Shown here: one piece after another, positions 5,373 through 13,605 of the stretch
Layout of the letters: the number at the start of each line of letters is the position of its first letter
How positions within the stretch are numbered: the stretch's first letter is position 1
Virus record (IMG/VR): IMGVR_UViG_3300027792_000292
Location: 67,127 to 131,126 of that record
Length of the DNA: 64,000 nt
Origin: a virus
Strand: one strand, 5' to 3'
Notes under the pieces: model-generated
Databases searched by the model: none
The model's input: only the letters and a program-made list of their open reading frames with translations
Told to the model about the DNA's origin: nothing
Position numbers and translations under genes: made by a program

Positions 5373-6581
5373 ATGAGTATGCTAAATGCGTCTGTTTTTT
5401 CCATAACTCCTCATATGCAAAGAGTTATGGATATCAATGGTTGTTATGCTTCAATAATGAGGGCAGAAAAGAAACAAGAAGAGAGTAGTGATGGGTTACC
5501 CTCAGGTATACCTATACCAGTTCTTCCTGTAGATTACCTGAAAGATCGCCCCAAGGAATGGGTTGGCGGAGAGGGGTCTTACGTAGTACCTGTAGATTCT
5601 GATTGGGGTCTTTGGTTCAATTGGACTATGAATAATCCAATGGATACATCTGTTCTCGTTTCAGTAAAAGGGATGAATCCATTGACCGGACAGAAAATAA
5701 ATGGGTACACTCTTGAAGAGACTGGGAATGAATGCCCTATTCATAAGACTCCTTTTAAGAGGGGCAAGCTTTGTACTGAGTGTGGATTTAAGTGGCCATC
5801 ACAGAATTTTATTTCAGCCCCCAACCCACTTTATCTCGATGGTTTTAGACAAGCAGATGGAAATGTTCGTCAGTTCTTCTTCACTGAAGATATGGCACGT
5901 TCAATACCAGAGTTGGTAATTGGTAAAGAAGATACTGTGCCAGCGTTTGGATTCTGCTTTTATCGAAGAAAGAAGTATGAGATAACGTATGAGGGAGGGA
6001 ATAGATGTAAGAACGAATTTCCAAAAATTCAAGATATAAATGTAAGTTACCTAATAGGAGAAACAGGCGCACTATGTACTTCCTGTGATTCTTTAGAATA
6101 CGAACGTAGAACTTCTGGAGCCAGGCTCAGAGGCGGTGGCGTAGGGTCTACGAAGCGTTTTGGGCATCTATATAGTAAAGGACTCAGTAGTAGCTACGAG
6201 GCTTCCTATAGTACTTTATGTTGTGCTGCTGATGCCTCAGTTTCTTCATCAGAGCCAGAATTAAGGGCTTTCTATGCGGATTCTGATGTAGCACATACTA
6301 TCAATCTTGTAGACTCCTTTAGTGATGCTATAGAAGACCGTAGCGAAGTAAGGCTATATAAAAGTGCTGATGTGGGTATCGGCGCTGGAGCTAGGATAAA
6401 ACAGGACTTCATAAAATCTATAGTTCCTTTAGAGGATTGGAAGGAAAAACCCGAAGGTACACTCAGGTTATATTTTGTCTTCCAGGAACAGTTTGAGGCT
6501 ATGGCTGAAGCAGGCTTTAACGACCTTAGCGGAGCTAAGGAAGGATATTTGGTAAATCTTCCCGTAGGAGGTAGCAAATGA
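5373..6581 (+). CDS. Conserved hypothetical protein resembling a bacterial/fungal family often fused to ubiquitin domains, with zinc-ribbon insert
   Basis: Motifs LPVD...W..G...VP...LWFNW, QNFI.AP...YLDG....G.VRQF, GIGAGARIKQ...W; family match is from memory. Confidence 0.5.
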   Translation: MSMLNASVFSITPHMQRVMDINGCYASIMRAEKKQEESSDGLPSGIPIPVLPVDYLKDRPKEWVGGEGSYVVPVDSDWGLWFNWTMNNPMDTSVLVSVKGMNPLTGQKINGYTLEETGNECPIHKTPFKRGKLCTECGFKWPSQNFISAPNPLYLDGFRQADGNVRQFFFTEDMARSIPELVIGKEDTVPAFGFCFYRRKKYEITYEGGNRCKNEFPKIQDINVSYLIGETGALCTSCDSLEYERRTSGARLRGGGVGSTKRFGHLYSKGLSSSYEASYSTLCCAADASVSSSEPELRAFYADSDVAHTINLVDSFSDAIEDRSEVRLYKSADVGIGAGARIKQDFIKSIVPLEDWKEKPEGTLRLYFVFQEQFEAMAEAGFNDLSGAKEGYLVNLPVGGSK

Positions 6582-7183
6582 ATAAAGTAGATTTGTTATT
6601 TATAGTAGATATAACAGGATCTATGGGGAATCTTATTACAGAAGCAAAAAGAAGGATGAAGGATATTTTAGATAGGATAGTTAAAGAATATAATATCGAT
6701 TTAAAAGTTGGGTTAAGCTTTTATAGAGATCACCCATCGCAGGAAAGCACCTTTGTTACTGTTACATATGACTTAGATGATGTTGGTAAGACTGTAAAAG
6801 TGTTTGATACAGTTACAGCTTCAGGTGGAGGAGATACACCAGAAGCAGGTTTAGATGGAATTATTGATGGTATAAGTGACATGAAGTGGAGAGAGGGTTC
6901 CAGAAGAGTAGCTTTTCTTATTGGGGATGCTCCACTACACGGTATGTATGGTGATGAGGGTTGCTGTATGTGTGGGAAGACTTGGGGAGATGCTATTTCT
7001 ATAGCACAGTCTAAAGAAGTTACTATTTATTCTATCGTGTTAGGCGGAAATAGTGAAGCTCAGGATAATTTCAAAACATTAGCTATTTTTTCTGGTGGCC
7101 TTTATATCAAGACGGAAGATGCTATTGGTGCTATTTTTAATACACTAAAAGTTACTATGGAAGACCTTTCTATAAAAAGATAA
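6578..7183 (+). CDS. vWA domain protein
   Basis: MIDAS DITGSM, YRDH, GGGDTPEA, WR..SRRVAFLIGDAPLHG. Confidence 0.9.
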   Translation: MNKVDLLFIVDITGSMGNLITEAKRRMKDILDRIVKEYNIDLKVGLSFYRDHPSQESTFVTVTYDLDDVGKTVKVFDTVTASGGGDTPEAGLDGIIDGISDMKWREGSRRVAFLIGDAPLHGMYGDEGCCMCGKTWGDAISIAQSKEVTIYSIVLGGNSEAQDNFKTLAIFSGGLYIKTEDAIGAIFNTLKVTMEDLSIKR

Positions 7184-10129: not shown

Positions 10130-10158
10130 TTGATCTTAAATAAGTGAAATGGTATATT
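10130..10158 (+). promoter_or_regulatory. sigma70-type promoter of the ncRNA array (P1)
   Basis: TTGATC-17 nt-TATATT with TG extended -10; boxA-like GATCTTTGA at 10167. Confidence 0.75.
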
Positions 10159-10181
10159 AGTAGTACGATCTTTGATAAAAT

Positions 10182-10330
10182 GGGTTCTGCACTCTGACAG
10201 ATAATGGATGCGTACATTTGCATTTGCATTTAGCTCAGTCGGTAGAGCTGAGGAATAATAATCCTTTGGTCGGCGGTTCAACTCCGCTAGTGCATTCCTT
10301 TCTATCGCATCTGCGACTTGTGCAGAACCC
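10182..10330 (+). ncRNA. Scaffolded RNA unit 1 carrying a linear tRNA-like cargo (loop ATAATAA, anticodon AAT)
   Basis: Outer stem GGGTTCTGCAC/GTGCAGAACCC; GATGCGTACATT...CGCATC; D arm TAGCTCAGTCGGTAGAGC, T arm GGCGG-TTCAACT-CCGCT. Confidence 0.8.
10224..10296 (+). tRNA. tRNA-like cloverleaf (Ile-AAT-like, non-canonical) embedded in unit 1
   Basis: Acceptor TGCATT/AGTGCA, anticodon stem GAGGA/TCCTT, no encoded CCA. Confidence 0.5.
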
Positions 10331-10344
10331 TTTTAAAATTTTTC

Positions 10345-10410
10345 TTGATCATTGAATACCGAAATGGTATATTAGTGTTACTCAAGTGAAACTTGGAAAG
10401 TTCTTTGAAA
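10345..10410 (+). promoter_or_regulatory. Promoter P2 with boxB-like hairpin and boxA-like element
   Basis: TTGATC-17-TATATT (10345-10373); hairpin CAAG-TGAAA-CTTG; GTTCTTTGAAA at 10400. Confidence 0.7.
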
Positions 10411-10535
10411 GATACGAAGCATACTCAAACCCTTGATGCATACATTATAGCTCATTGGTAGAGCGTTTGCCATTTAAGCAAAAGGTACGGTTCAAATCCG
10501 TTCGTCCCGCATTAGTAACTCGTGTGCTTTGTATC
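10411..10535 (+). ncRNA. Scaffolded RNA unit 2 carrying tRNA D/anticodon/T arms without an acceptor stem (anticodon TTT, Lys-like)
   Basis: Outer stem GATACGAAGCATAC/GTGTGCTTTGTATC; GATGCATACATT...CGCATTAGTAACTCG; TAGCTCATTGGTAGAGC, TTTGC-CATTTAA-GCAAA, ACGG-TTCAAAT-CCGT. Confidence 0.8.
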
Positions 10536-10640
10536 TATATATTTCGAGAGTTCTCGCTACTCAACGACCACGGATTAAAAGACGTATACGAAGAGTAAAG
10601 GGTCTCTCGACTGAAAATAAGTTTTTTGATAATAGATCTT

Positions 10641-10788
10641 TGACATGAGTTACACTCCAACTTTTGATGCGTACATTTGCTTTTTCGTCCAATTGGTAGG
10701 ACATTACTCTGATAAAGTGATTGTTGGGGGTTCAAGTCCCTCAAAAGCAGCCCAAAACTCGCATTATCAACTTGTGTAACTCATGTCA
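10641..10788 (+). ncRNA. Scaffolded RNA unit 3 carrying a complete tRNA-Ile(GAT)-like cloverleaf
   Basis: Perfect 15-bp outer stem TGACATGAGTTACAC/GTGTAACTCATGTCA; GATGCGTACATT...CGCATTATCAACTTG. Confidence 0.85.
10678..10750 (+). tRNA. tRNA-Ile(GAT)-like, embedded in unit 3
   Basis: Acceptor TGCTTTT/AAAAGCA, D GTCC/GGAC, anticodon arm TTACT-CTGATAA-AGTGA, T arm GGGGG-TTCAAGT-CCCTC. Confidence 0.7.
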
Positions 10789-10796
10789 TTTTTTTC

Positions 10797-10860
10797 TTGA
10801 TCTTTAATTACCAAAAAGGTATATTAGAATACAGACCTGAAAAGGTCAAGCTCTTTGAAA
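10797..10860 (+). promoter_or_regulatory. Promoter P3 with boxB-like hairpin and boxA-like element
   Basis: TTGATC-17-TATATT (10797-10825); GACC-TGAAAA-GGTC; GCTCTTTGAAA at 10850. Confidence 0.7.
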
Positions 10861-11032
10861 GATAGAAGCACTCTCTAATTTTGGATGCATACATTGGTTC
10901 AAGCGTTTGCTAACTAAAGCAAAAGATTGTTCGTTCAAGTCGAACTTCCCCCACCAAGTAGATTTTAATGTCTACTTGGTGGGGGAAAAGCTTAATAAAA
11001 AAAGCATTTATAACTTGAGTGTTTCTTCTTTC
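10857..11032 (+). ncRNA. Scaffolded RNA unit 4 carrying a circularly permuted tRNA opened in the D-loop
   Basis: Order after GATGCATACATT: 3' half of D arm (GGTTCAAGC), anticodon arm, T arm GTTCG-TTCAAGT-CGAAC, acceptor 3' strand with ACCA inside a 17-bp perfect hairpin, acceptor 5' strand, then AA-GCTT (5' D stem). Confidence 0.75.
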
Positions 11033-11067
11033 ATTCGTTCCTTGTCCCTATGTAATAGGGGTTGTTC

Positions 11068-11218
11068 TATGAAAAGTATCTTCTAACAGTTAGGGCGTAC
11101 ATTATCCTGTAAAGATAAACGCCTGGGCATTAAGCGCTCAGGCATCTGTATTCCTTCCGCCTTAGCGCGGCTGGGATATAGCACACGCATTGATTACTCG
11201 GATACTTCTCTTGTCATA
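11068..11218 (+). ncRNA. Scaffolded RNA unit 5 carrying a Tyr(GTA)-like anticodon stem-loop plus two GC-rich hairpins
   Basis: AAGTATC/GATACTT outer stem; GGGCGTACATT...CGCATTGATTACTCG; TTATC-CTGTAAA-GATAA. Confidence 0.7.
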
Positions 11219-11231
11219 CTCTTTGAAATTA

Positions 11232-11356
11232 TAGTGTATTTATCCTCTAATGCTGAGGGCTTACATTTTCTACGGTTGAAAAACAAGCCTAAGCGCACTC
11301 CCGTTTGGTGGGAGGAAGCGATGGGTCGAGCACTTAGGACTCGGATAAATACATTA
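11232..11356 (+). ncRNA. Scaffolded RNA unit 6 with a 5-bp/7-nt hairpin and a GC hairpin cargo
   Basis: Outer stem TAGTGTATTTATCC/GGATAAATACATTA; GGGCTTACATT...GCACTTAGGACTCG; TTTTC-TACGGTT-GAAAA; CTCCC/GGGAG. Confidence 0.65.
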
Positions 11357-11375
11357 TTATATAATTACTATGAGT

Positions 11376-11526
11376 ATAAGTCTCATCTTCTAACTTTTGA
11401 TGCGTACATTGTCATGCTGGTTCGAATCCAGTCGCTCTTTTCGGAGAGCGTAGCCGAATGGTAAGGCACCCGTTTAAGGAACAGGAACAAAACAAACTTC
11501 GCATTAGTAACTTGGATGGGATTTAT
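11376..11526 (+). ncRNA. Scaffolded RNA unit 7 carrying a circularly permuted tRNA opened at the variable loop (YrlA-like arm order)
   Basis: ATAAGTCTCATC/GATGGGATTTAT outer stem; GATGCGTACATT; T arm GCTGG-TTCGAAT-CCAGT, acceptor CGCTCTT-TTCG-GAGAGCG closed by a tetraloop, D arm TAGCCGAATGGTAAGGC, anticodon-like CCCGT-TTAAGGA-ACAGG; CGCATTAGTAACTTG. Confidence 0.8.
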
Positions 11527-11527
11527 T

Positions 11528-11563
11528 AAGAGCCGGGATTCGAAAGGATTCCGGCTCTTTTTT
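11528..11563 (+). terminator. Rho-independent terminator ending the ncRNA array
   Basis: AAGAGCCGGGATTC-GAAA-GGATTCCGGCTC followed by T6. Confidence 0.85.
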
Positions 11564-11678
11564 ATTAAATAATTATTTTCAATTATTTATGTCAAATAGT
11601 ATATTACTCTGAACATTGAATATTAGCCTATAAGTGATAATTGGTAAATTAGTACCACAATGTAAGAGGAGGTTCAAG

Positions 11679-11936
11679 ATGGCAAGTGTGCATATTCGTT
11701 ACGATGGTAGTACCAGGGAAGTCGATTTCGAAAATATTTTTCCAGAAGATCGACTTACAGCTATAGGGATTGCCAATACCGCGCAGGTTAACTCACGCAA
11801 CGTGAGCGCCGATAACGTCAAGACTGCCGTAGCGCAGTATCTCGATATCGGATTGGGAGAACTTGATGGGTATAACGTCGAGTTCCATAAGAACGGAAAC
11901 ATCACCGTTCGCCCTGATGCTGTATTTGGGAAGTAA
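11679..11936 (+). CDS. Small ubiquitin-like (beta-grasp) protein ending ...RPDAVFG-K
   Basis: GAGGAGG RBS; beta-beta-alpha-beta pattern (VHIRYDG.TREV / VKTAVAQYL / YNVEFH.NGNITVRP), near-terminal Gly; E1 and JAB genes nearby. Confidence 0.65.
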   Translation: MASVHIRYDGSTREVDFENIFPEDRLTAIGIANTAQVNSRNVSADNVKTAVAQYLDIGLGELDGYNVEFHKNGNITVRPDAVFGK

Positions 11937-12006: not shown

Positions 12007-13605
12007 ATGAATCGTCAGCGTAACACTCAAACTGTTTCCGCGCCACAAATACCACAGGTTGAACAGGACATCCGTGTTCAAATGCTCAATAGCTTCATGT
12101 CCTGTCCACATCGTGATACTGATGCGATCAGGAAGATACATGAGGATCTGCGACAGCGTGACCCTTCATTCTACTCTCATCTTGCTGCCTGGTATGAGAA
12201 GAATGGCGAACTTCGCGACCACAAGGAAGTATTCATTTCTATGTTGATCGTAGACCCCTATCTCGATAACCGTGAGGTTGGTCTTGCCCTGTGGCAGAAA
12301 GCTGTGCCTTTCATGAAGACCCGTATCCTTGGTTTCATTAAGGGTAAGAAGGTCAAGATTCGTGAGAAGACAAATCAGACACGCCAAGTTGGAAAGAAGA
12401 AAATTCCGGTAGTAAACGTGACCGAGAAAGTTGTGGGCCTTTTTAAGAACGTGCCCTCAGCGTTCAAGACTGAGGTGGTACACTATCTAAAGTGGTTAGA
12501 GACCGACCCTGAGCGTTTTGATGGTGTGGCTATGCGCAACTCTGAGGATTTGAGGACGCTCTACGCTTCCTTGAAAATCCCTCACTCAAAGAGAGTGCAA
12601 CAAATCCTTTGGGAGAAGAAGTACCCAAAGGAGAGTAAGTTGAATGTTTTCAAGGAGATTACGGATGCGAAGTCTCCTGAAGAAGCAGCAACGCTCATTG
12701 TTAAGAATAAGGTTCCGTATACTACGGCAGTAGGTCTCATTGAGAAGATGACCCCCTCCATCTTGGTTGCTCTCATCAATAATATGAGTTCCCAGGAAGT
12801 TATTAACAACATTGCTTCTCTTCAGGAGAGTGGTGCATTAGATAACCCTGATACTAAGGCTATGGTTGAAAAGAAGCTTAAGCAGGCTGAGACCGCAAAG
12901 AATGTTACAGCCTTGAAGTCTAAAGCAGCGATTAATACAGGTCGTATCAAGGATGAGGCTGTCGTGGCGCAACTTGATAAGATTGCAGATGTACAAATAA
13001 AGAGCAAAGGTATCATTATGGCTTCTACAGCGATCTTTGTAGATCGCTCTGGATCGATGAGCATTGCTATTGAGTCAGGGAAGCATTGTGCAGCGATGGT
13101 ATCCGGTGCTACAGAAGCTCCTTTGTATGTGGTTGCCTTTGATACGCTTCCAATGGAAATCTATCCAGTGTCCGCACGTCCAAAGGACAGGACCACTACC
13201 ATGACCGACTGGGAAAGGGCATTTAAGCCTGTGCGCGATGGTGGTTCGACTTCTATGGGATGTGCTTTGGAGTATCTGCGTCAAAAGAAGATGTACGTTG
13301 AGCAGATTGTTGTTATTACTGATGAGGGTGAGAATGCAACCCCCATGTTCACTGATGTCTATACTCGGTACTCCGAGGAGATGAAGGTGAAGCCTCATGT
13401 GGTTATCATCCGTACACCAAATTCAGGTCATACTTTCAGCACAAACCTGAAGAGGGCTGGTATTAGTTATGATGTATACACTCCTAATGGGTCAGACTAC
13501 TATGGTTTACCAGGATTGATTCCACTTCTTGCCCGAACATCGAAGCTGGACCTTCTTATGGAGATCATGGATACTCCGCTTCCTACACGTAGGCAGTGGA
13601 AGTAA
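12007..13605 (+). CDS. Ro60/TROVE-like helical protein with C-terminal vWA domain
   Basis: Long helical N-terminal region (DPSFYSHLAAW, ELINNIASL-type helices) followed by MIDAS DRSGSM, GGSTSMG, VVITDEGEN; 532 aa, similar in size to Ro60; adjacent to tRNA-mimic RNAs. Confidence 0.75.
   Translation: MNRQRNTQTVSAPQIPQVEQDIRVQMLNSFMSCPHRDTDAIRKIHEDLRQRDPSFYSHLAAWYEKNGELRDHKEVFISMLIVDPYLDNREVGLALWQKAVPFMKTRILGFIKGKKVKIREKTNQTRQVGKKKIPVVNVTEKVVGLFKNVPSAFKTEVVHYLKWLETDPERFDGVAMRNSEDLRTLYASLKIPHSKRVQQILWEKKYPKESKLNVFKEITDAKSPEEAATLIVKNKVPYTTAVGLIEKMTPSILVALINNMSSQEVINNIASLQESGALDNPDTKAMVEKKLKQAETAKNVTALKSKAAINTGRIKDEAVVAQLDKIADVQIKSKGIIMASTAIFVDRSGSMSIAIESGKHCAAMVSGATEAPLYVVAFDTLPMEIYPVSARPKDRTTTMTDWERAFKPVRDGGSTSMGCALEYLRQKKMYVEQIVVITDEGENATPMFTDVYTRYSEEMKVKPHVVIIRTPNSGHTFSTNLKRAGISYDVYTPNGSDYYGLPGLIPLLARTSKLDLLMEIMDTPLPTRRQWK

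What the first reader, a model, noticed from the sequence alone, without database searches (positions are those of the whole stretch)
10857..11032. Circularly permuted tRNA opened in the D-loop, with its CCA buried in a 17-bp hairpin
After TACATT the order is GGTTC-AAGC (3' D half), anticodon arm TTTGC..GCAAA, T arm, acceptor 3' strand TTCCCCC-A-CCA, linker, TGGT-GGGGGAA (complement of ACCA plus the acceptor 5' strand), then AA-GCTT (5' D half). The scaffold therefore replaces the D-loop, and the acceptor end is sealed by a perfect 17-bp stem (10946-10987). This differs from YrlA, where the anticodon arm is replaced. The unit shares its leader and TTTGC/GCAAA anticodon stem with unit 2, suggesting cargo shuffling among paralogues.
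Basis: seen in the sequence. Interest (0 to 1): 0.75.

Follow-up and report, generated by a model that had tools for sequence, protein, structure and literature searches.

The report
D-loop-permuted tRNA mimic beside phage Ro60
A huge phage carries, next to its Ro60-like gene, a small RNA that is a transfer RNA turned inside out: it is opened in the D-loop, its acceptor end is closed by a long hairpin, and the same design recurs in related phages, giving a new way of mounting a tRNA look-alike on a Y-RNA-type scaffold.

Summary
A long outer stem and a closing stem enclose a four-way junction: a 4-bp AAGC/GCTT stem, an anticodon-like hairpin, a T arm and a perfect 17-bp hairpin containing ACCA.

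It is one of seven scaffold-plus-cargo units (about 10160-11560) upstream of a 532-aa protein with a Ro60 fold.

Eleven distinct homologues were found beside related Ro60-like genes. Eight keep a covarying D stem (GAGC/GCTC, GAGT/GCTC, GAAC/GTTC, AAGC/GCTT), flanked by D-loop halves (AGT; GG-ATA in the canonical copies).

Joined back in tRNA order by script, 6 of 11 are called tRNA by ARAGORN at default and 9 of 11 at 95%, against 0 of 2700 shuffles. The window's copy is a degenerate member: score 97.9 and an 8-nt anticodon loop.

CCA is kept in 5 of 11, so it is probably a relic.

Best reading: a Y-RNA-like tRNA mimic entered through the D-loop, a new variant of YrlA-type RNAs. Function and processing are inferred, not shown.

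The scan noted the same unit from an overlapping window of this genome (e1-6144989).

The parts
10797..10825 (+). Promoter-like site TTGATC-N17-TATATT ahead of the unit. No further promoter-like site follows before the terminator-like hairpin at 11528-11559.
   Evidence: consensus scan only: 6 sites found against 5.9 expected in shuffles, so weak on its own. The same architecture recurs at 10130 and 10345.
10857..10873 (+). Outer stem, 5' strand. It pairs with 11017-11032.
   Evidence: MFE structures. Outer-stem pairs covary among homologues (helix 1: 7 of 9 pairs change on both sides).
10874..10881 (+). Conserved 5' internal-loop motif of the scaffold (TCTAAT here; YTYTAAC in most units).
   Evidence: (D2)
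10882..10888 (+). Closing stem, 5' strand (TGGATGC). It pairs with 11004-11010.
   Evidence: helix 2
10889..10900 (+). 5' joiner: the scaffold motif TACATT runs straight into GG-TTC, the 3' half of a D-loop (G18 G19 equivalents).
   Evidence: TACAT[T/G/A] is found in 57 of 71 distinct scaffold units.
10901..10904 (+). D stem, 3' strand (AAGC).
10906..10923 (+). Anticodon-like arm: TTTGC / GCAAA with the 8-nt loop TAACTAAA.
   Evidence: Helix 4 has 3 of 5 pairs changed on both sides.
10924..10928 (+). 5-nt variable region AGATT. T48 can pair with A15 at 10995 (Levitt pair; G:C in the canonical homologues).
   Evidence: my reading of alignment A4
10929..10945 (+). T arm: GTTCG - TTCAAGT - CGAAC.
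   Evidence: Helix 5 has 5 of 5 pairs changed on both sides.
10946..10987 (+). Sealed acceptor. The 7-bp acceptor stem TTCCCCC/GGGGGAA is continued through A73-T and CCA-TGG into a perfect 17-bp hairpin (18 bp with a closing U-G).
   Evidence: (I1). Helix 6 has 13 of 15 pairs changed on both sides.
10988..10996 (+). AA (positions 8-9), the D stem 5' strand GCTT (10990-10993), and AAT, the 5' half of the D-loop (positions 14-16).
10997..11003 (+). A-rich 3' joiner of the scaffold (AAAAAAA).
   Evidence: Seen in the other D-permuted units and in the other units of the array (my reading).
11004..11032 (+). Closing stem 3' strand (GCATTTA), the 3' internal-loop motif TAACTT, and the outer stem 3' strand.
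   Evidence: (D18)
12007..13605 (+). 532-aa Ro60-fold protein (HEAT-repeat ring plus vWA domain), the presumed protein partner of the array.
   Evidence: AF2 model pLDDT 81.8. Foldseek: the best-ranked listed PDB rows (ranks 1-12, 11 rows) are all Ro60/TROVE chains, E 2e-11 to 2e-9, TMq 0.50-0.64. phrog_850 'RNA-binding protein' E 2e-6.

Best explanation
Window 10857-11032 encodes one unit of an array of Y-RNA-like small RNAs.

Shown:
- A scaffold (outer stem, a conserved internal loop, a 7-bp closing stem, then TACATT on the 5' side and an A-run on the 3' side) carries a complete tRNA-like body.
- The two strands of that body enter through the D-loop. The order is D-loop 3' half, D stem 3' strand, anticodon arm, variable region, T arm, acceptor 3' strand, N73-CCA, capping hairpin, acceptor 5' strand, positions 8-9, D stem 5' strand, D-loop 5' half.
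- The design is conserved and covaries in related huge-phage contigs. It always lies beside a gene whose product has the Ro60 fold.

Inferred:
- The scaffold is the binding site of the phage Ro60-like protein.
- The tRNA-shaped module stays closed. It has no free CCA end and cannot be charged. It acts as a tRNA mimic that recruits or traps a tRNA-binding factor.
- The scaffold leaves the module at the elbow side, so the anticodon arm and the capped acceptor arm point outward.
- The unit probably arose from two tandem copies of one CCA-encoding tRNA gene: the 3' part of the first plus the 5' part of the second. This would explain the buried CCA as a relic.
- The window's copy is a somewhat decayed member of the family.
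For: Structure: MFE and centroid both give the four-way junction, z = -10.05.

Family:
- CM searches of the window plus 91 loci around Ro60-like genes gave 11 distinct members. With R2 the training rows score 119.5 bits or more and L030, which was not a training row, scores 75.4. The next best hits, other unit types, score 61.1 or less.
- On a MAFFT alignment not fitted to the structure, 93.8% of cells pair against 40-47% when partners are slid. 32 of 42 pairs change on both sides, and 0 of 500 shuffles reach this.
- The D stem pairs in all 28 cells of the 7 rows that have it. Its forms are GAGC/GCTC, GAGT/GCTC, GAAC/GTTC and AAGC/GCTT.

tRNA identity:
- Script-re-permuted units are called tRNA by ARAGORN in 6 of 11 at default and 9 of 11 at 95%. 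The window scores 97.9. The array's ordinary tRNAs score 113.1 and 116.7. Shuffles give 0 of 2700.
- Canonical members keep U8, A14, G15:C48, G18G19, A21 and a TTCRA T-loop (my reading).
- The window keeps the 15:48 pair as A:T.

Ro60 link:
- The best-ranked listed PDB rows (ranks 1-12, 11 rows) for the neighbouring protein are all Ro60/TROVE chains.
- Scaffold units are found in 51 of 92 sources.
- In the window's own 131-kb record they occur only inside this array.
- The last unit of the array partly matches Rfam YrlA: 24.7 bits, E 0.031, below the gathering score.

Mimic rather than decoder:
- Re-permuted homologues with near-identical acceptor stems read as Arg, Leu, Met and Phe, or have 6- or 8-nt loops.
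- Three of 11 lost the 5' D strand yet keep the rest.

Closed end: pairing of the 5' leader with RCCA inhibits bacterial RNase P (PMC9433436, abstract and passages read). In the window positions -1 to -4 pair fully with ACCA.
Against: - No binding, expression or processing data exist for this RNA.
- The Ro60-binding motif of known bacterial Y RNAs (GNCGAAN0-1G / CGAA) is absent: CGAA lies in the first 25 nt of 2 of 71 distinct units. Binding to the Ro60-like protein therefore rests on neighbourhood alone.
- Rfam YrlA does not hit this unit at E<=10.
- Retention of CCA in 5 of 11, and of an A(-2)Y(-1) leader with an unpaired C74 in four of those five (my reading), hints that some members are opened by RNase P. 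That would make the closed-mimic picture incomplete.
- The near-constant hairpin length (17-19 bp in 9 of 10 folded members) is not explained by the mimic idea.
- The only RNA-library evidence is contigs of a roughly 90% relative. Contigs can come from DNA and show no ends.
Confidence: 0.6

Rival explanations
1. Two-piece, CCA-ended Y RNA. The capping hairpin is removed: RNase P cuts 5' of G1, possibly after RNase III cuts the long helix, and the 3' side is trimmed back to the encoded CCA or has CCA added. The result is a split tRNA-like RNA held together by its stems, still on the scaffold, with a free 3' end. This is what happens to Mycobacterium smegmatis YrlA.
For: - M. smegmatis YrlA, which has a 7-bp acceptor stem, is cut by RNase P and gains CCA while both halves stay with Rsr (PMC4201824, section 8, read).
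- Here the acceptor stem is 7 bp in all 11 distinct members, followed by N73.
- CCA is encoded in 5 of 11.
- Four of those five have A at -2 opposite C74 (unpaired) and U or C at -1 (my reading). The RNase P paper calls A(-2)U(-1) the optimal leader (PMC9433436, passage read).
- The acceptor hairpin stacked on the T stem would give about 22-24 continuous bp, which is RNase III-sized (the RNase III size is recalled, not from a call).
Against: - In the window all four positions -1 to -4 pair with ACCA inside a perfect 17-bp helix. PMC9433436 reports this kind of pairing as inhibitory.
- Six of 11 members have no CCA.
- No CCA-adding enzyme (PF01743) or RtcB (PF01139) was found in the 131-kb record. 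The record is only about 24% complete, so this is weak.
- No RNA-end data.
Confidence: 0.2
2. A true circularly permuted tRNA gene. Leader and trailer are excised at the D-loop, the ends are ligated into a circle, and the acceptor is then opened. This would yield a working tRNA, as for the type I (junction 20/21) permuted tRNA of Cyanidioschyzon merolae.
For: - The gene order is the same (3' half, intervening sequence, 5' half), with a junction in the D-loop (PMC3978253, passages read).
- Canonical homologues re-permute to tRNAs that score as well as the array's ordinary tRNAs: 112.7-123.3 against 113.1 and 116.7.
- Two of them have textbook anticodon loops, CAT and GAA.
Against: - There is no bulge-helix-bulge motif. 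The junction is a 7-bp helix between large two-sided internal loops.
- No RtcB was found in the partial record.
- The scaffold is the same conserved one that carries non-tRNA cargos (units at 11068-11218 and 11232-11356).
- Anticodons are not conserved among clear orthologues.
- The window has an 8-nt loop, and 3 of 11 members lack a D stem strand.
Confidence: 0.05
3. The scaffolds are processing or stability cassettes for phage tRNA genes and have nothing to do with Ro60. This unit is a by-product of recombination between neighbouring tRNA units and has no function of its own.
For: - Two units of the array hold complete tRNAs.
- The 5' half of this unit is the unit at 10395-10535 minus 9 nt, as expected from unequal recombination.
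- The window's copy has decayed tRNA identity positions.
Against: - The permuted design is kept in 11 distinct sequences from contigs whose Ro60-like proteins are only 55-62% identical to the window's.
- Compensatory changes occur in every helix, and one locus holds two such units (L031).
- The 17-bp hairpin is still perfect in the window.
- Arrays lie beside the Ro60-like gene in 51 of 92 sources.
- In the own record the scaffold occurs nowhere else.
Confidence: 0.1
4. Chance resemblance: an ordinary hairpin-rich spacer that happens to look like tRNA parts.
For: Native-order tRNA finders see nothing here.
Against: - z = -10 for folding.
- 0 of 2700 shuffles reach the ARAGORN score.
- Homologues covary.
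Confidence: 0.01

Closest known systems
YrlA-type bacterial and phage Y RNAs (Rfam RF02553; Chen et al. 2014, PMC4201824; Wang et al. 2018, bioRxiv 10.1101/312249)
   Same: - A small RNA encoded just upstream of, and on the same strand as, a Ro60 orthologue.
- A basal stem plus a tRNA-like module with a T arm and a loop-closed acceptor stem.
- Wang et al. already describe most YrlAs as resembling circularly permuted tRNAs with closed acceptor stems.
   Different: - YrlA is opened at the anticodon end: its 5' and 3' ends form the anticodon stem, and the order is V-T-AS-D. This unit is opened in the D-loop and keeps a whole anticodon arm.
- The acceptor cap is 17-19 bp and often includes CCA.
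- The GNCGAAN0-1G / CGAA motif is missing, and another conserved scaffold takes its place (YTYTAAC ... TACAT ... A-run ... RACTYG).
- The partner Ro60 has no Pfam TROVE hit and is recognisable only by fold.
Mycobacterium smegmatis YrlA
   Same: A 7-bp acceptor stem closed by a loop, which is a potential RNase P site.
   Different: There cleavage and CCA addition were shown. Here nothing is shown, CCA is encoded in 5 of 11 members, and in the window it is fully base-paired.
Circularly permuted tRNA genes of algae and archaea, type I (junction 20/21 in the D-loop; Soma 2014 review, PMC3978253)
   Same: The 3' half lies upstream of the 5' half, an intervening sequence joins the acceptor ends, and the junction is in the D-loop.
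   Different: - Those have a BHB motif cut by the splicing endonuclease and mature into working tRNAs through a circle.
- Here there is no BHB, the setting is bacterial-type (a sigma-70-like promoter and an intrinsic terminator), the scaffold is shared with non-tRNA cargos, and anticodons are not conserved.
- That review lists 34 permuted tRNA genes, all from algae and archaea.
Thermus phage phiLo Ro60 with Yrl1/Yrl2 (PMC12135203; PDB 9KOP, 9L5Y)
   Same: A phage Ro60 with Y-RNA-like genes directly upstream. Its structures are among the best fold matches of the window's protein.
   Different: The phiLo Yrls were picked by a CGAA motif in a large bulge and are not described as tRNA-like in the passages I read. 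There are two RNAs, not an array of seven.
Two-piece (permuted) tmRNA
   Same: A circularly permuted gene for a tRNA-like RNA in bacteria (mentioned in PMC3978253).
   Different: tmRNA ends up as two pieces with a free, chargeable CCA end and an mRNA part. Nothing of that kind is seen here.

Membership tests
YrlA / bacterial Y RNA | Encoded within a few kb of, and on the same strand as, a Ro60 (TROVE) orthologue | tested here: met
   The unit ends 975 nt upstream of ORF 12007-13605 (+). The model of that ORF matches Ro60/TROVE chains in all 11 best-ranked listed PDB rows (ranks 1-12). There is no Pfam TROVE hit.
YrlA / bacterial Y RNA | Score at or above Rfam's gathering score for RF02553 (69 bits) | tested here: not met
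   No RF02553 match on 10857-11032 at E<=10. Only the last unit (11415-11467) matches, at 24.7 bits.
YrlA / bacterial Y RNA | GNCGAAN0-1G (CGAA) motif near the 5' end | tested here: not met
   There is no CGAA in the unit's leader. CGAA lies in the first 25 nt of 2 of 71 distinct scaffold units. A different conserved loop motif occupies the analogous place.
YrlA / bacterial Y RNA | Module order V - T arm - closed acceptor - D arm, with the basal stem in place of the anticodon arm | tested here: not met
   The order here is D 3' strand - anticodon arm - variable region - T arm - closed acceptor - D 5' strand.
YrlA / bacterial Y RNA | Bound by Ro60/Rsr; carries tRNA modifications (TruB, DusA) | not testable with these tools
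   Needs pull-down or EMSA and modification mapping.
tRNA (cloverleaf; ARAGORN / Rfam RF00005) | A contiguous cloverleaf is detected in native order | tested here: not met
   ARAGORN finds only 10224-10298 and 10677-10754. There is no RF00005 match on the unit at E<=10.
tRNA (cloverleaf; ARAGORN / Rfam RF00005) | Detected as tRNA after in-silico re-permutation at the D-loop | tested here: inconclusive
   The window scores 97.9. It is not reported at default and is reported at the 95% threshold, flagged with a 4-base anticodon. Homologues: 6 of 11 at default and 9 of 11 at 95%. Shuffles: 0 of 2700 at both settings. Infernal RF00005 could not be run on the joined sequence.
tRNA (cloverleaf; ARAGORN / Rfam RF00005) | 7-nt anticodon loop with U33; U8, A14, G18G19, A21, T54-Psi55-C56 | tested here: not met
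   The window has an 8-nt loop, A8 and C at the place of A21. It keeps A14, GG and TTC. The canonical homologues L073, L070, L031a and L027 keep all of these except that L070's T-loop reads TTT; L068 has a 6-nt loop.
Circularly permuted tRNA genes (Soma types I-IV) | 3' half upstream of 5' half, joined by an intervening sequence between the acceptor ends | tested here: met
   24 nt (10957-10980) lie between A76 and G1.
Circularly permuted tRNA genes (Soma types I-IV) | Bulge-helix-bulge motif at the junction of leader and trailer | tested here: not met
   The junction is a 7-bp helix flanked by two-sided internal loops of 8/7 nt and 8/6 nt in the MFE structure. It is not a 3-4-3 BHB (my inspection).
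Circularly permuted tRNA genes (Soma types I-IV) | Circular intermediate and a mature contiguous tRNA | not testable with these tools
   Only contigs were available from the one RNA library.

The most novel reading that the evidence does not exclude
The capped acceptor is opened in the cell (RNase P, perhaps after RNase III, then trimming to the encoded CCA). The phage Ro60 particle would then carry a two-piece tRNA with a free, possibly chargeable CCA end. Alternatively, in the canonical members, the D-loop junction is cut and re-ligated to give a working tRNA. That would be the first permuted tRNA gene outside algae and archaea, and a direct link between Y RNAs and tRNA biogenesis.
Probability: 0.12. 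Interest if true: 0.9.

Novelty: new variant of a known kind. Interest (0 to 1): 0.7.

Why it matters
Known Y-RNA tRNA mimics mount the tRNA shape on the Ro60-binding stem through the anticodon end. This unit shows that the same kind of scaffold can hold a tRNA body through the D-loop at the elbow side, and that the arrangement is kept by selection in many huge phages.

Together with its neighbours (whole tRNAs held by the acceptor end, an acceptor-less tRNA, and a YrlA-like unit) it suggests a phage toolkit that presents tRNA shapes in several orientations on one protein platform. That gives a concrete handle on an open question: what the tRNA-like domain of Y RNAs is for.

It is also a natural bacterial-world example of a D-loop-permuted tRNA fold. 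Its probable tandem-tRNA origin bears on how permuted tRNA genes and Y RNAs arise.

Tried and rejected
- A strict motif search for TACA..GGTT.A found only the L003/L008/L017 homologues. A scan for a T arm followed by a perfect hairpin of 11 bp or more added L005/L024 and one YrlA-like unit. Both were too strict, and the CM searches found the rest.
- From L003 and L005 alone I first thought the D stem was not conserved. The wider set showed these two lineages had lost the 5' strand.
- The search for related loci with the single protein found no relative. With the alignment it found 11.
- Pfam and PDB sequence searches did not identify the 532-aa protein.
- A phage-collection blastn of the array matched only the tRNA-like part of the first unit.
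- RNA evidence: one metatranscriptome run holds contigs of a roughly 90% relative over 10260-10624, 10789-10910 and 11279-11463. Contigs show no ends or strand and may be DNA, so I draw no conclusion on expression or processing. Parts without cover mean nothing.
- RtcB and PolyA_pol were not found in the own record. The record is about 24% complete, so this is not evidence of absence.
- Not in print, as far as my searches reach: searches gave no paper describing a D-loop-permuted Y RNA or tRNA mimic in a phage or bacterium. Subscription journals are not covered.
- Supplements were closed. Supplemental Fig. S1 and Tables S1/S2 of PMC4201824 may show further YrlA variants that I could not see.
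Full report
**The observation**

Reading the window confirms every element at the coordinates given. These are TACATT (10890-10895), GG-TTC, AAGC (10901-10904), G, TTTGC/GCAAA (10906-10910 / 10919-10923), AGATT and the T arm GTTCG-TTCAAGT-CGAAC (10929-10945). They are followed by TTCCCCC-A-CCA (10946-10956), a cap, TGGT-GGGGGAA (10977-10987), AA, GCTT (10990-10993), AAT and an A-run.

The arms 10946-10962 and 10971-10987 are 17 nt long, 100% complementary, and 8 nt apart. RNAfold puts the AAGC/GCTT stem in both the MFE and the centroid structure. MFE is -73.9 kcal/mol against -36.1 +/- 3.8 for 200 shuffles, z -10.05 (coordinates re-derived).

The spacers round the junction are those of a tRNA: 2 nt, 1 nt, 5 nt and 0 nt. 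One correction: the anticodon-like loop is TAACTAAA, which is 8 nt (or 6 nt with a sixth pair), not 7.

**Context**

No ORF of 80 aa or more lies between 9948 and 11634. That space holds seven units on the + strand. They share a leader ending in GATGCRTACATT and a trailer beginning CGCATTAGTAACT (families D2, D5, D9).

- Two units hold whole tRNAs.
- One holds a tRNA without an acceptor stem (10447-10502, model positions 7-64).
- Two hold cargos that do not look like tRNA.
- The last (11380-11526) has the order T arm, closed acceptor, D arm, and matches Rfam YrlA weakly (24.7 bits, gathering score 69, E 0.031).

Promoter-like sites TTGATC-N17-TATATT lie at 10130, 10345 and 10797, and a strong terminator-like hairpin lies at 11528-11559. 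The finding's unit may therefore be co-transcribed with the three units after it.

Downstream come a small ORF (11634-11936) and a 532-aa ORF (12007-13605). Pfam gives nothing for the 532-aa ORF at 1e-3. PHROGs gives phrog_850 'RNA-binding protein' (E 2e-6).

An AlphaFold model built on 28 homologues (pLDDT 81.8, pTM 0.74) matches Ro60/TROVE chains in all 11 best-ranked listed PDB rows, ranks 1-12 (E 2e-11 to 2e-9, TMq 0.50-0.64). They include Deinococcus Rsr and the Thermus phage phiLo Ro60.

The window is part of a 131-kb virus record estimated to be 24% complete. Relatives sit on viral contigs of 26-467 kb. This is a huge-phage clade.

**Homologues**

The Ro60-like protein has many relatives: 480 with E<=1e-3 among 8000 scored candidates. 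I fetched 11 loci from viral contigs and 80 from metagenome contigs (141 relatives, best 80 kept).

A first model built from four sequences and a second from nine were searched on the window plus 91 loci. Together they separate a clear family.

- With the second model the training rows score 119.5 bits or more.
- One new, 5'-truncated member (L030) scores 75.4.
- Everything else, meaning other unit types that share the scaffold, scores 61.1 or less.

After removing identical copies (L073=L082, L031=L032, L005=L024, L003=L008) there are 11 distinct permuted units. Two of them lie in a single array (L031).

**What the homologues show**

In the canonical members (L073, L070, L031a, L068, L027) the sequence reads as follows. 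Closing stem, TACAT, GG-ATA or GG-TTA or GG-TA, GAGC or GAGT, N, a 5-bp stem whose loop is 7 nt in four of the five (6 nt in L068), NNGTC, T arm, a 7-nt acceptor strand, N73, cap, the acceptor 5' strand, TA, GCTC, AGT or AGC, an A-rich joiner, closing stem.

That is a textbook D arm cut between position 16 and G18. The scaffold leaves through the cut.

On this MAFFT alignment, which was not fitted to any structure:

- 93.8% of 368 cells pair, against 40-47% when the 3' partners are slid by 1-3 columns.
- 32 of 42 pairs change on both sides.
- 0 of 500 shuffles reach the observed values.
- The D stem pairs in all 28 cells of the 7 rows that have it. One pair is invariant, one varies on one side, and two change on both sides.
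- The window's AAGC/GCTT is one of the compensated forms. GAAC/GTTC (L031b, and L030) is another.

Three of 11 (L003, L017, L005) have lost the 5' D strand by deletion but keep everything else.

By my reading of the alignment, the Levitt pair is G15:C48 in the canonical members and A:T in the window. The two members without GG (L031b, L030) also have non-canonical T-loops.

A script joined, for each unit, the stretch from G1 to three bases past the D stem onto the stretch from just before GG to position 76, and gave the result to ARAGORN.

- Of the nine aligned units, 5 are called tRNA over their full length at default (112.7-123.3) and 7 at the 95% threshold.
- Of all 11 distinct units, 6 are called at default and 9 at 95%.
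- The window's unit scores 97.9. It is missed at default and found at 95%, with a 4-base 'anticodon' because of the 8-nt loop.
- The array's two ordinary tRNAs score 113.1 and 116.7.
- Of 2700 dinucleotide shuffles, none is called at default or 95%, and 2 are called at 85% (maximum 92.5).

The permuted-tRNA reading is therefore right for the family. The window holds a somewhat decayed copy: A8, C in place of A21, and an 8-nt loop.

A contig from an RNA library belonging to a roughly 90% relative reads CTGAAAA in place of the window's loop (loose end after 10910). That is the canonical 7-nt loop also seen in L027.

**The buried CCA**

Positions 74-76 read CCA in 5 of 11 distinct units: the window, L031a, L031b, L068 and L030. 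The others read CTC, CTG, CTG, CTA, TTA and TTA. That is far more than chance but not a conserved feature.

In four of the five CCA-bearing units, all but the window, the base at -2 is an A opposite C74 and is unpaired, and -1 is U or C (my reading). In the window, -1 to -4 pair perfectly with ACCA.

Pairing of the leader with RCCA inhibits bacterial RNase P, and A(-2)U(-1) is the optimal leader (PMC9433436, abstract and two passages read). The cap length is nearly constant: 17-19 pairs in 9 of the 10 members folded, with L027 longer.

I read the CCA as a relic of origin from two tandem copies of a CCA-encoding tRNA gene, made of the 3' part of the first copy and the 5' part of the second. This is the route proposed for permuted tRNA genes in PMC3978253, in a passage I read. 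The CCA may still be used in some members.

**Relation to the neighbouring unit**

The unit at 10395-10535 and this one share 41 of 52 leader columns. After TACATT they differ by a 9-nt stretch (the 8-9 linker, the D 5' strand and the start of the D-loop) that is present there and absent here. They then run on alike through the D 3' strand and the TTTGC/GCAAA arm.

Exchange between units is plausible but untested.

**How it most likely works**

Shown: the fold, its conservation, its tRNA nature, and its place beside a Ro60-fold gene. The scaffold is found in 51 of 92 sources and nowhere else in the window's own record.

Inferred:

- The scaffold binds the Ro60-like protein.
- The closed tRNA body acts as a mimic, as proposed for YrlA (PMC4201824; bioRxiv 10.1101/312249).
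- Because the scaffold leaves through the D-loop, the anticodon arm and the capped acceptor arm are both exposed. The array as a whole presents tRNA shapes held by the acceptor end, by the D-loop and by the anticodon side.

That the module is a mimic rather than a decoder is suggested by unconserved anticodons on near-identical bodies (Arg, Leu, Met, Phe, and odd loops) and by D-stem loss in three lineages.

Against the Y-RNA filing: the CGAA motif is absent (2 of 71 distinct units), Rfam YrlA does not match this unit, and no binding or RNA-end data exist.

**Comparison with what is known**

[quoted passage not shown] The following are new here:

- the break-point in the D-loop, with a complete anticodon arm;
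- the long cap that often holds CCA;
- the different conserved scaffold;
- the array context beside a very divergent Ro60 in huge phages.

Permuted tRNA genes with a D-loop junction (type I, 20/21) are known from one red alga. The 2014 review lists 34 permuted genes, all from algae and archaea, all with a BHB motif (PMC3978253, passages read). No BHB is present here.

My five literature searches found no description of this topology in bacteria or phages.

**Verdict**

It is a new variant of a known kind. Interest 0.7.

Noticed in passing
window 10160-11560: Seven scaffold-plus-cargo units with different cargo topologies: whole tRNAs at 10224-10298 and 10677-10754, an acceptor-less tRNA at 10447-10502, two cargos that are not tRNA-like at about 11068-11218 and 11232-11356, and a YrlA-like unit at 11380-11526 that matches RF02553 at 24.7 bits. 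Other first-reader notes cover this array.
   Followed up: partly
window 5373-7183: Upstream of the array, a 402-aa ORF with no family hit is directly followed, overlapping by 4 nt, by a 201-aa ORF with a vWA domain (PF25106, E 5e-11). Together they have the size and domain order of a Ro60 split in two. The fold of the first ORF was not tested.
   Followed up: no
window 11634-11936; L001 3687-3942; L003 3731-3986; L004 3677-3935: A small ORF always sits between the RNA array and the Ro60-like gene. In the loci I read, its product ends in Gly or Gly-Lys (read by eye). Another note calls it ubiquitin-like. Not tested here.
   Followed up: no
L031 1292-1461 and 1501-1669: One array holds two D-loop-permuted units of different subtypes (D stem GAAC/GTTC and GAGC/GCTC). 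Both have CCA after the acceptor strand.
   Followed up: partly
L072 2051-2216; L060 1630-1787(-); L057 1661-1845(-); L071 2152-2315(-); L052 1797-1949(-); L027 1564-1730: YrlA-like units (T arm, closed acceptor, D arm, anticodon arm) whose acceptor is also extended to a long capped helix, about 15-22 bp in the MFE folds. L057 has ACCA after the acceptor strand. The long cap is therefore not peculiar to the D-loop-permuted type.
   Followed up: partly
L031b and L030 (alignment A4 / A5): The two permuted units that lack GG at positions 18-19 also have non-canonical T-loops (TGCAAAT, TGAGATT). This looks like joint loss of the elbow contact.
   Followed up: no
window 10260-10624, 10789-10910, 11279-11463: Contigs from a freshwater-sediment metatranscriptome library belong to a roughly 90% identical relative and cover parts of the array. 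One crosses the promoter-like region between two units. This cannot show transcription.
   Followed up: partly
several loci, e.g. L043, L023, L058, L060, L071: In 16 of 95 matches the scaffold units lie on the strand opposite to the Ro60-like gene, so the array is not always co-oriented with it.
   Followed up: no
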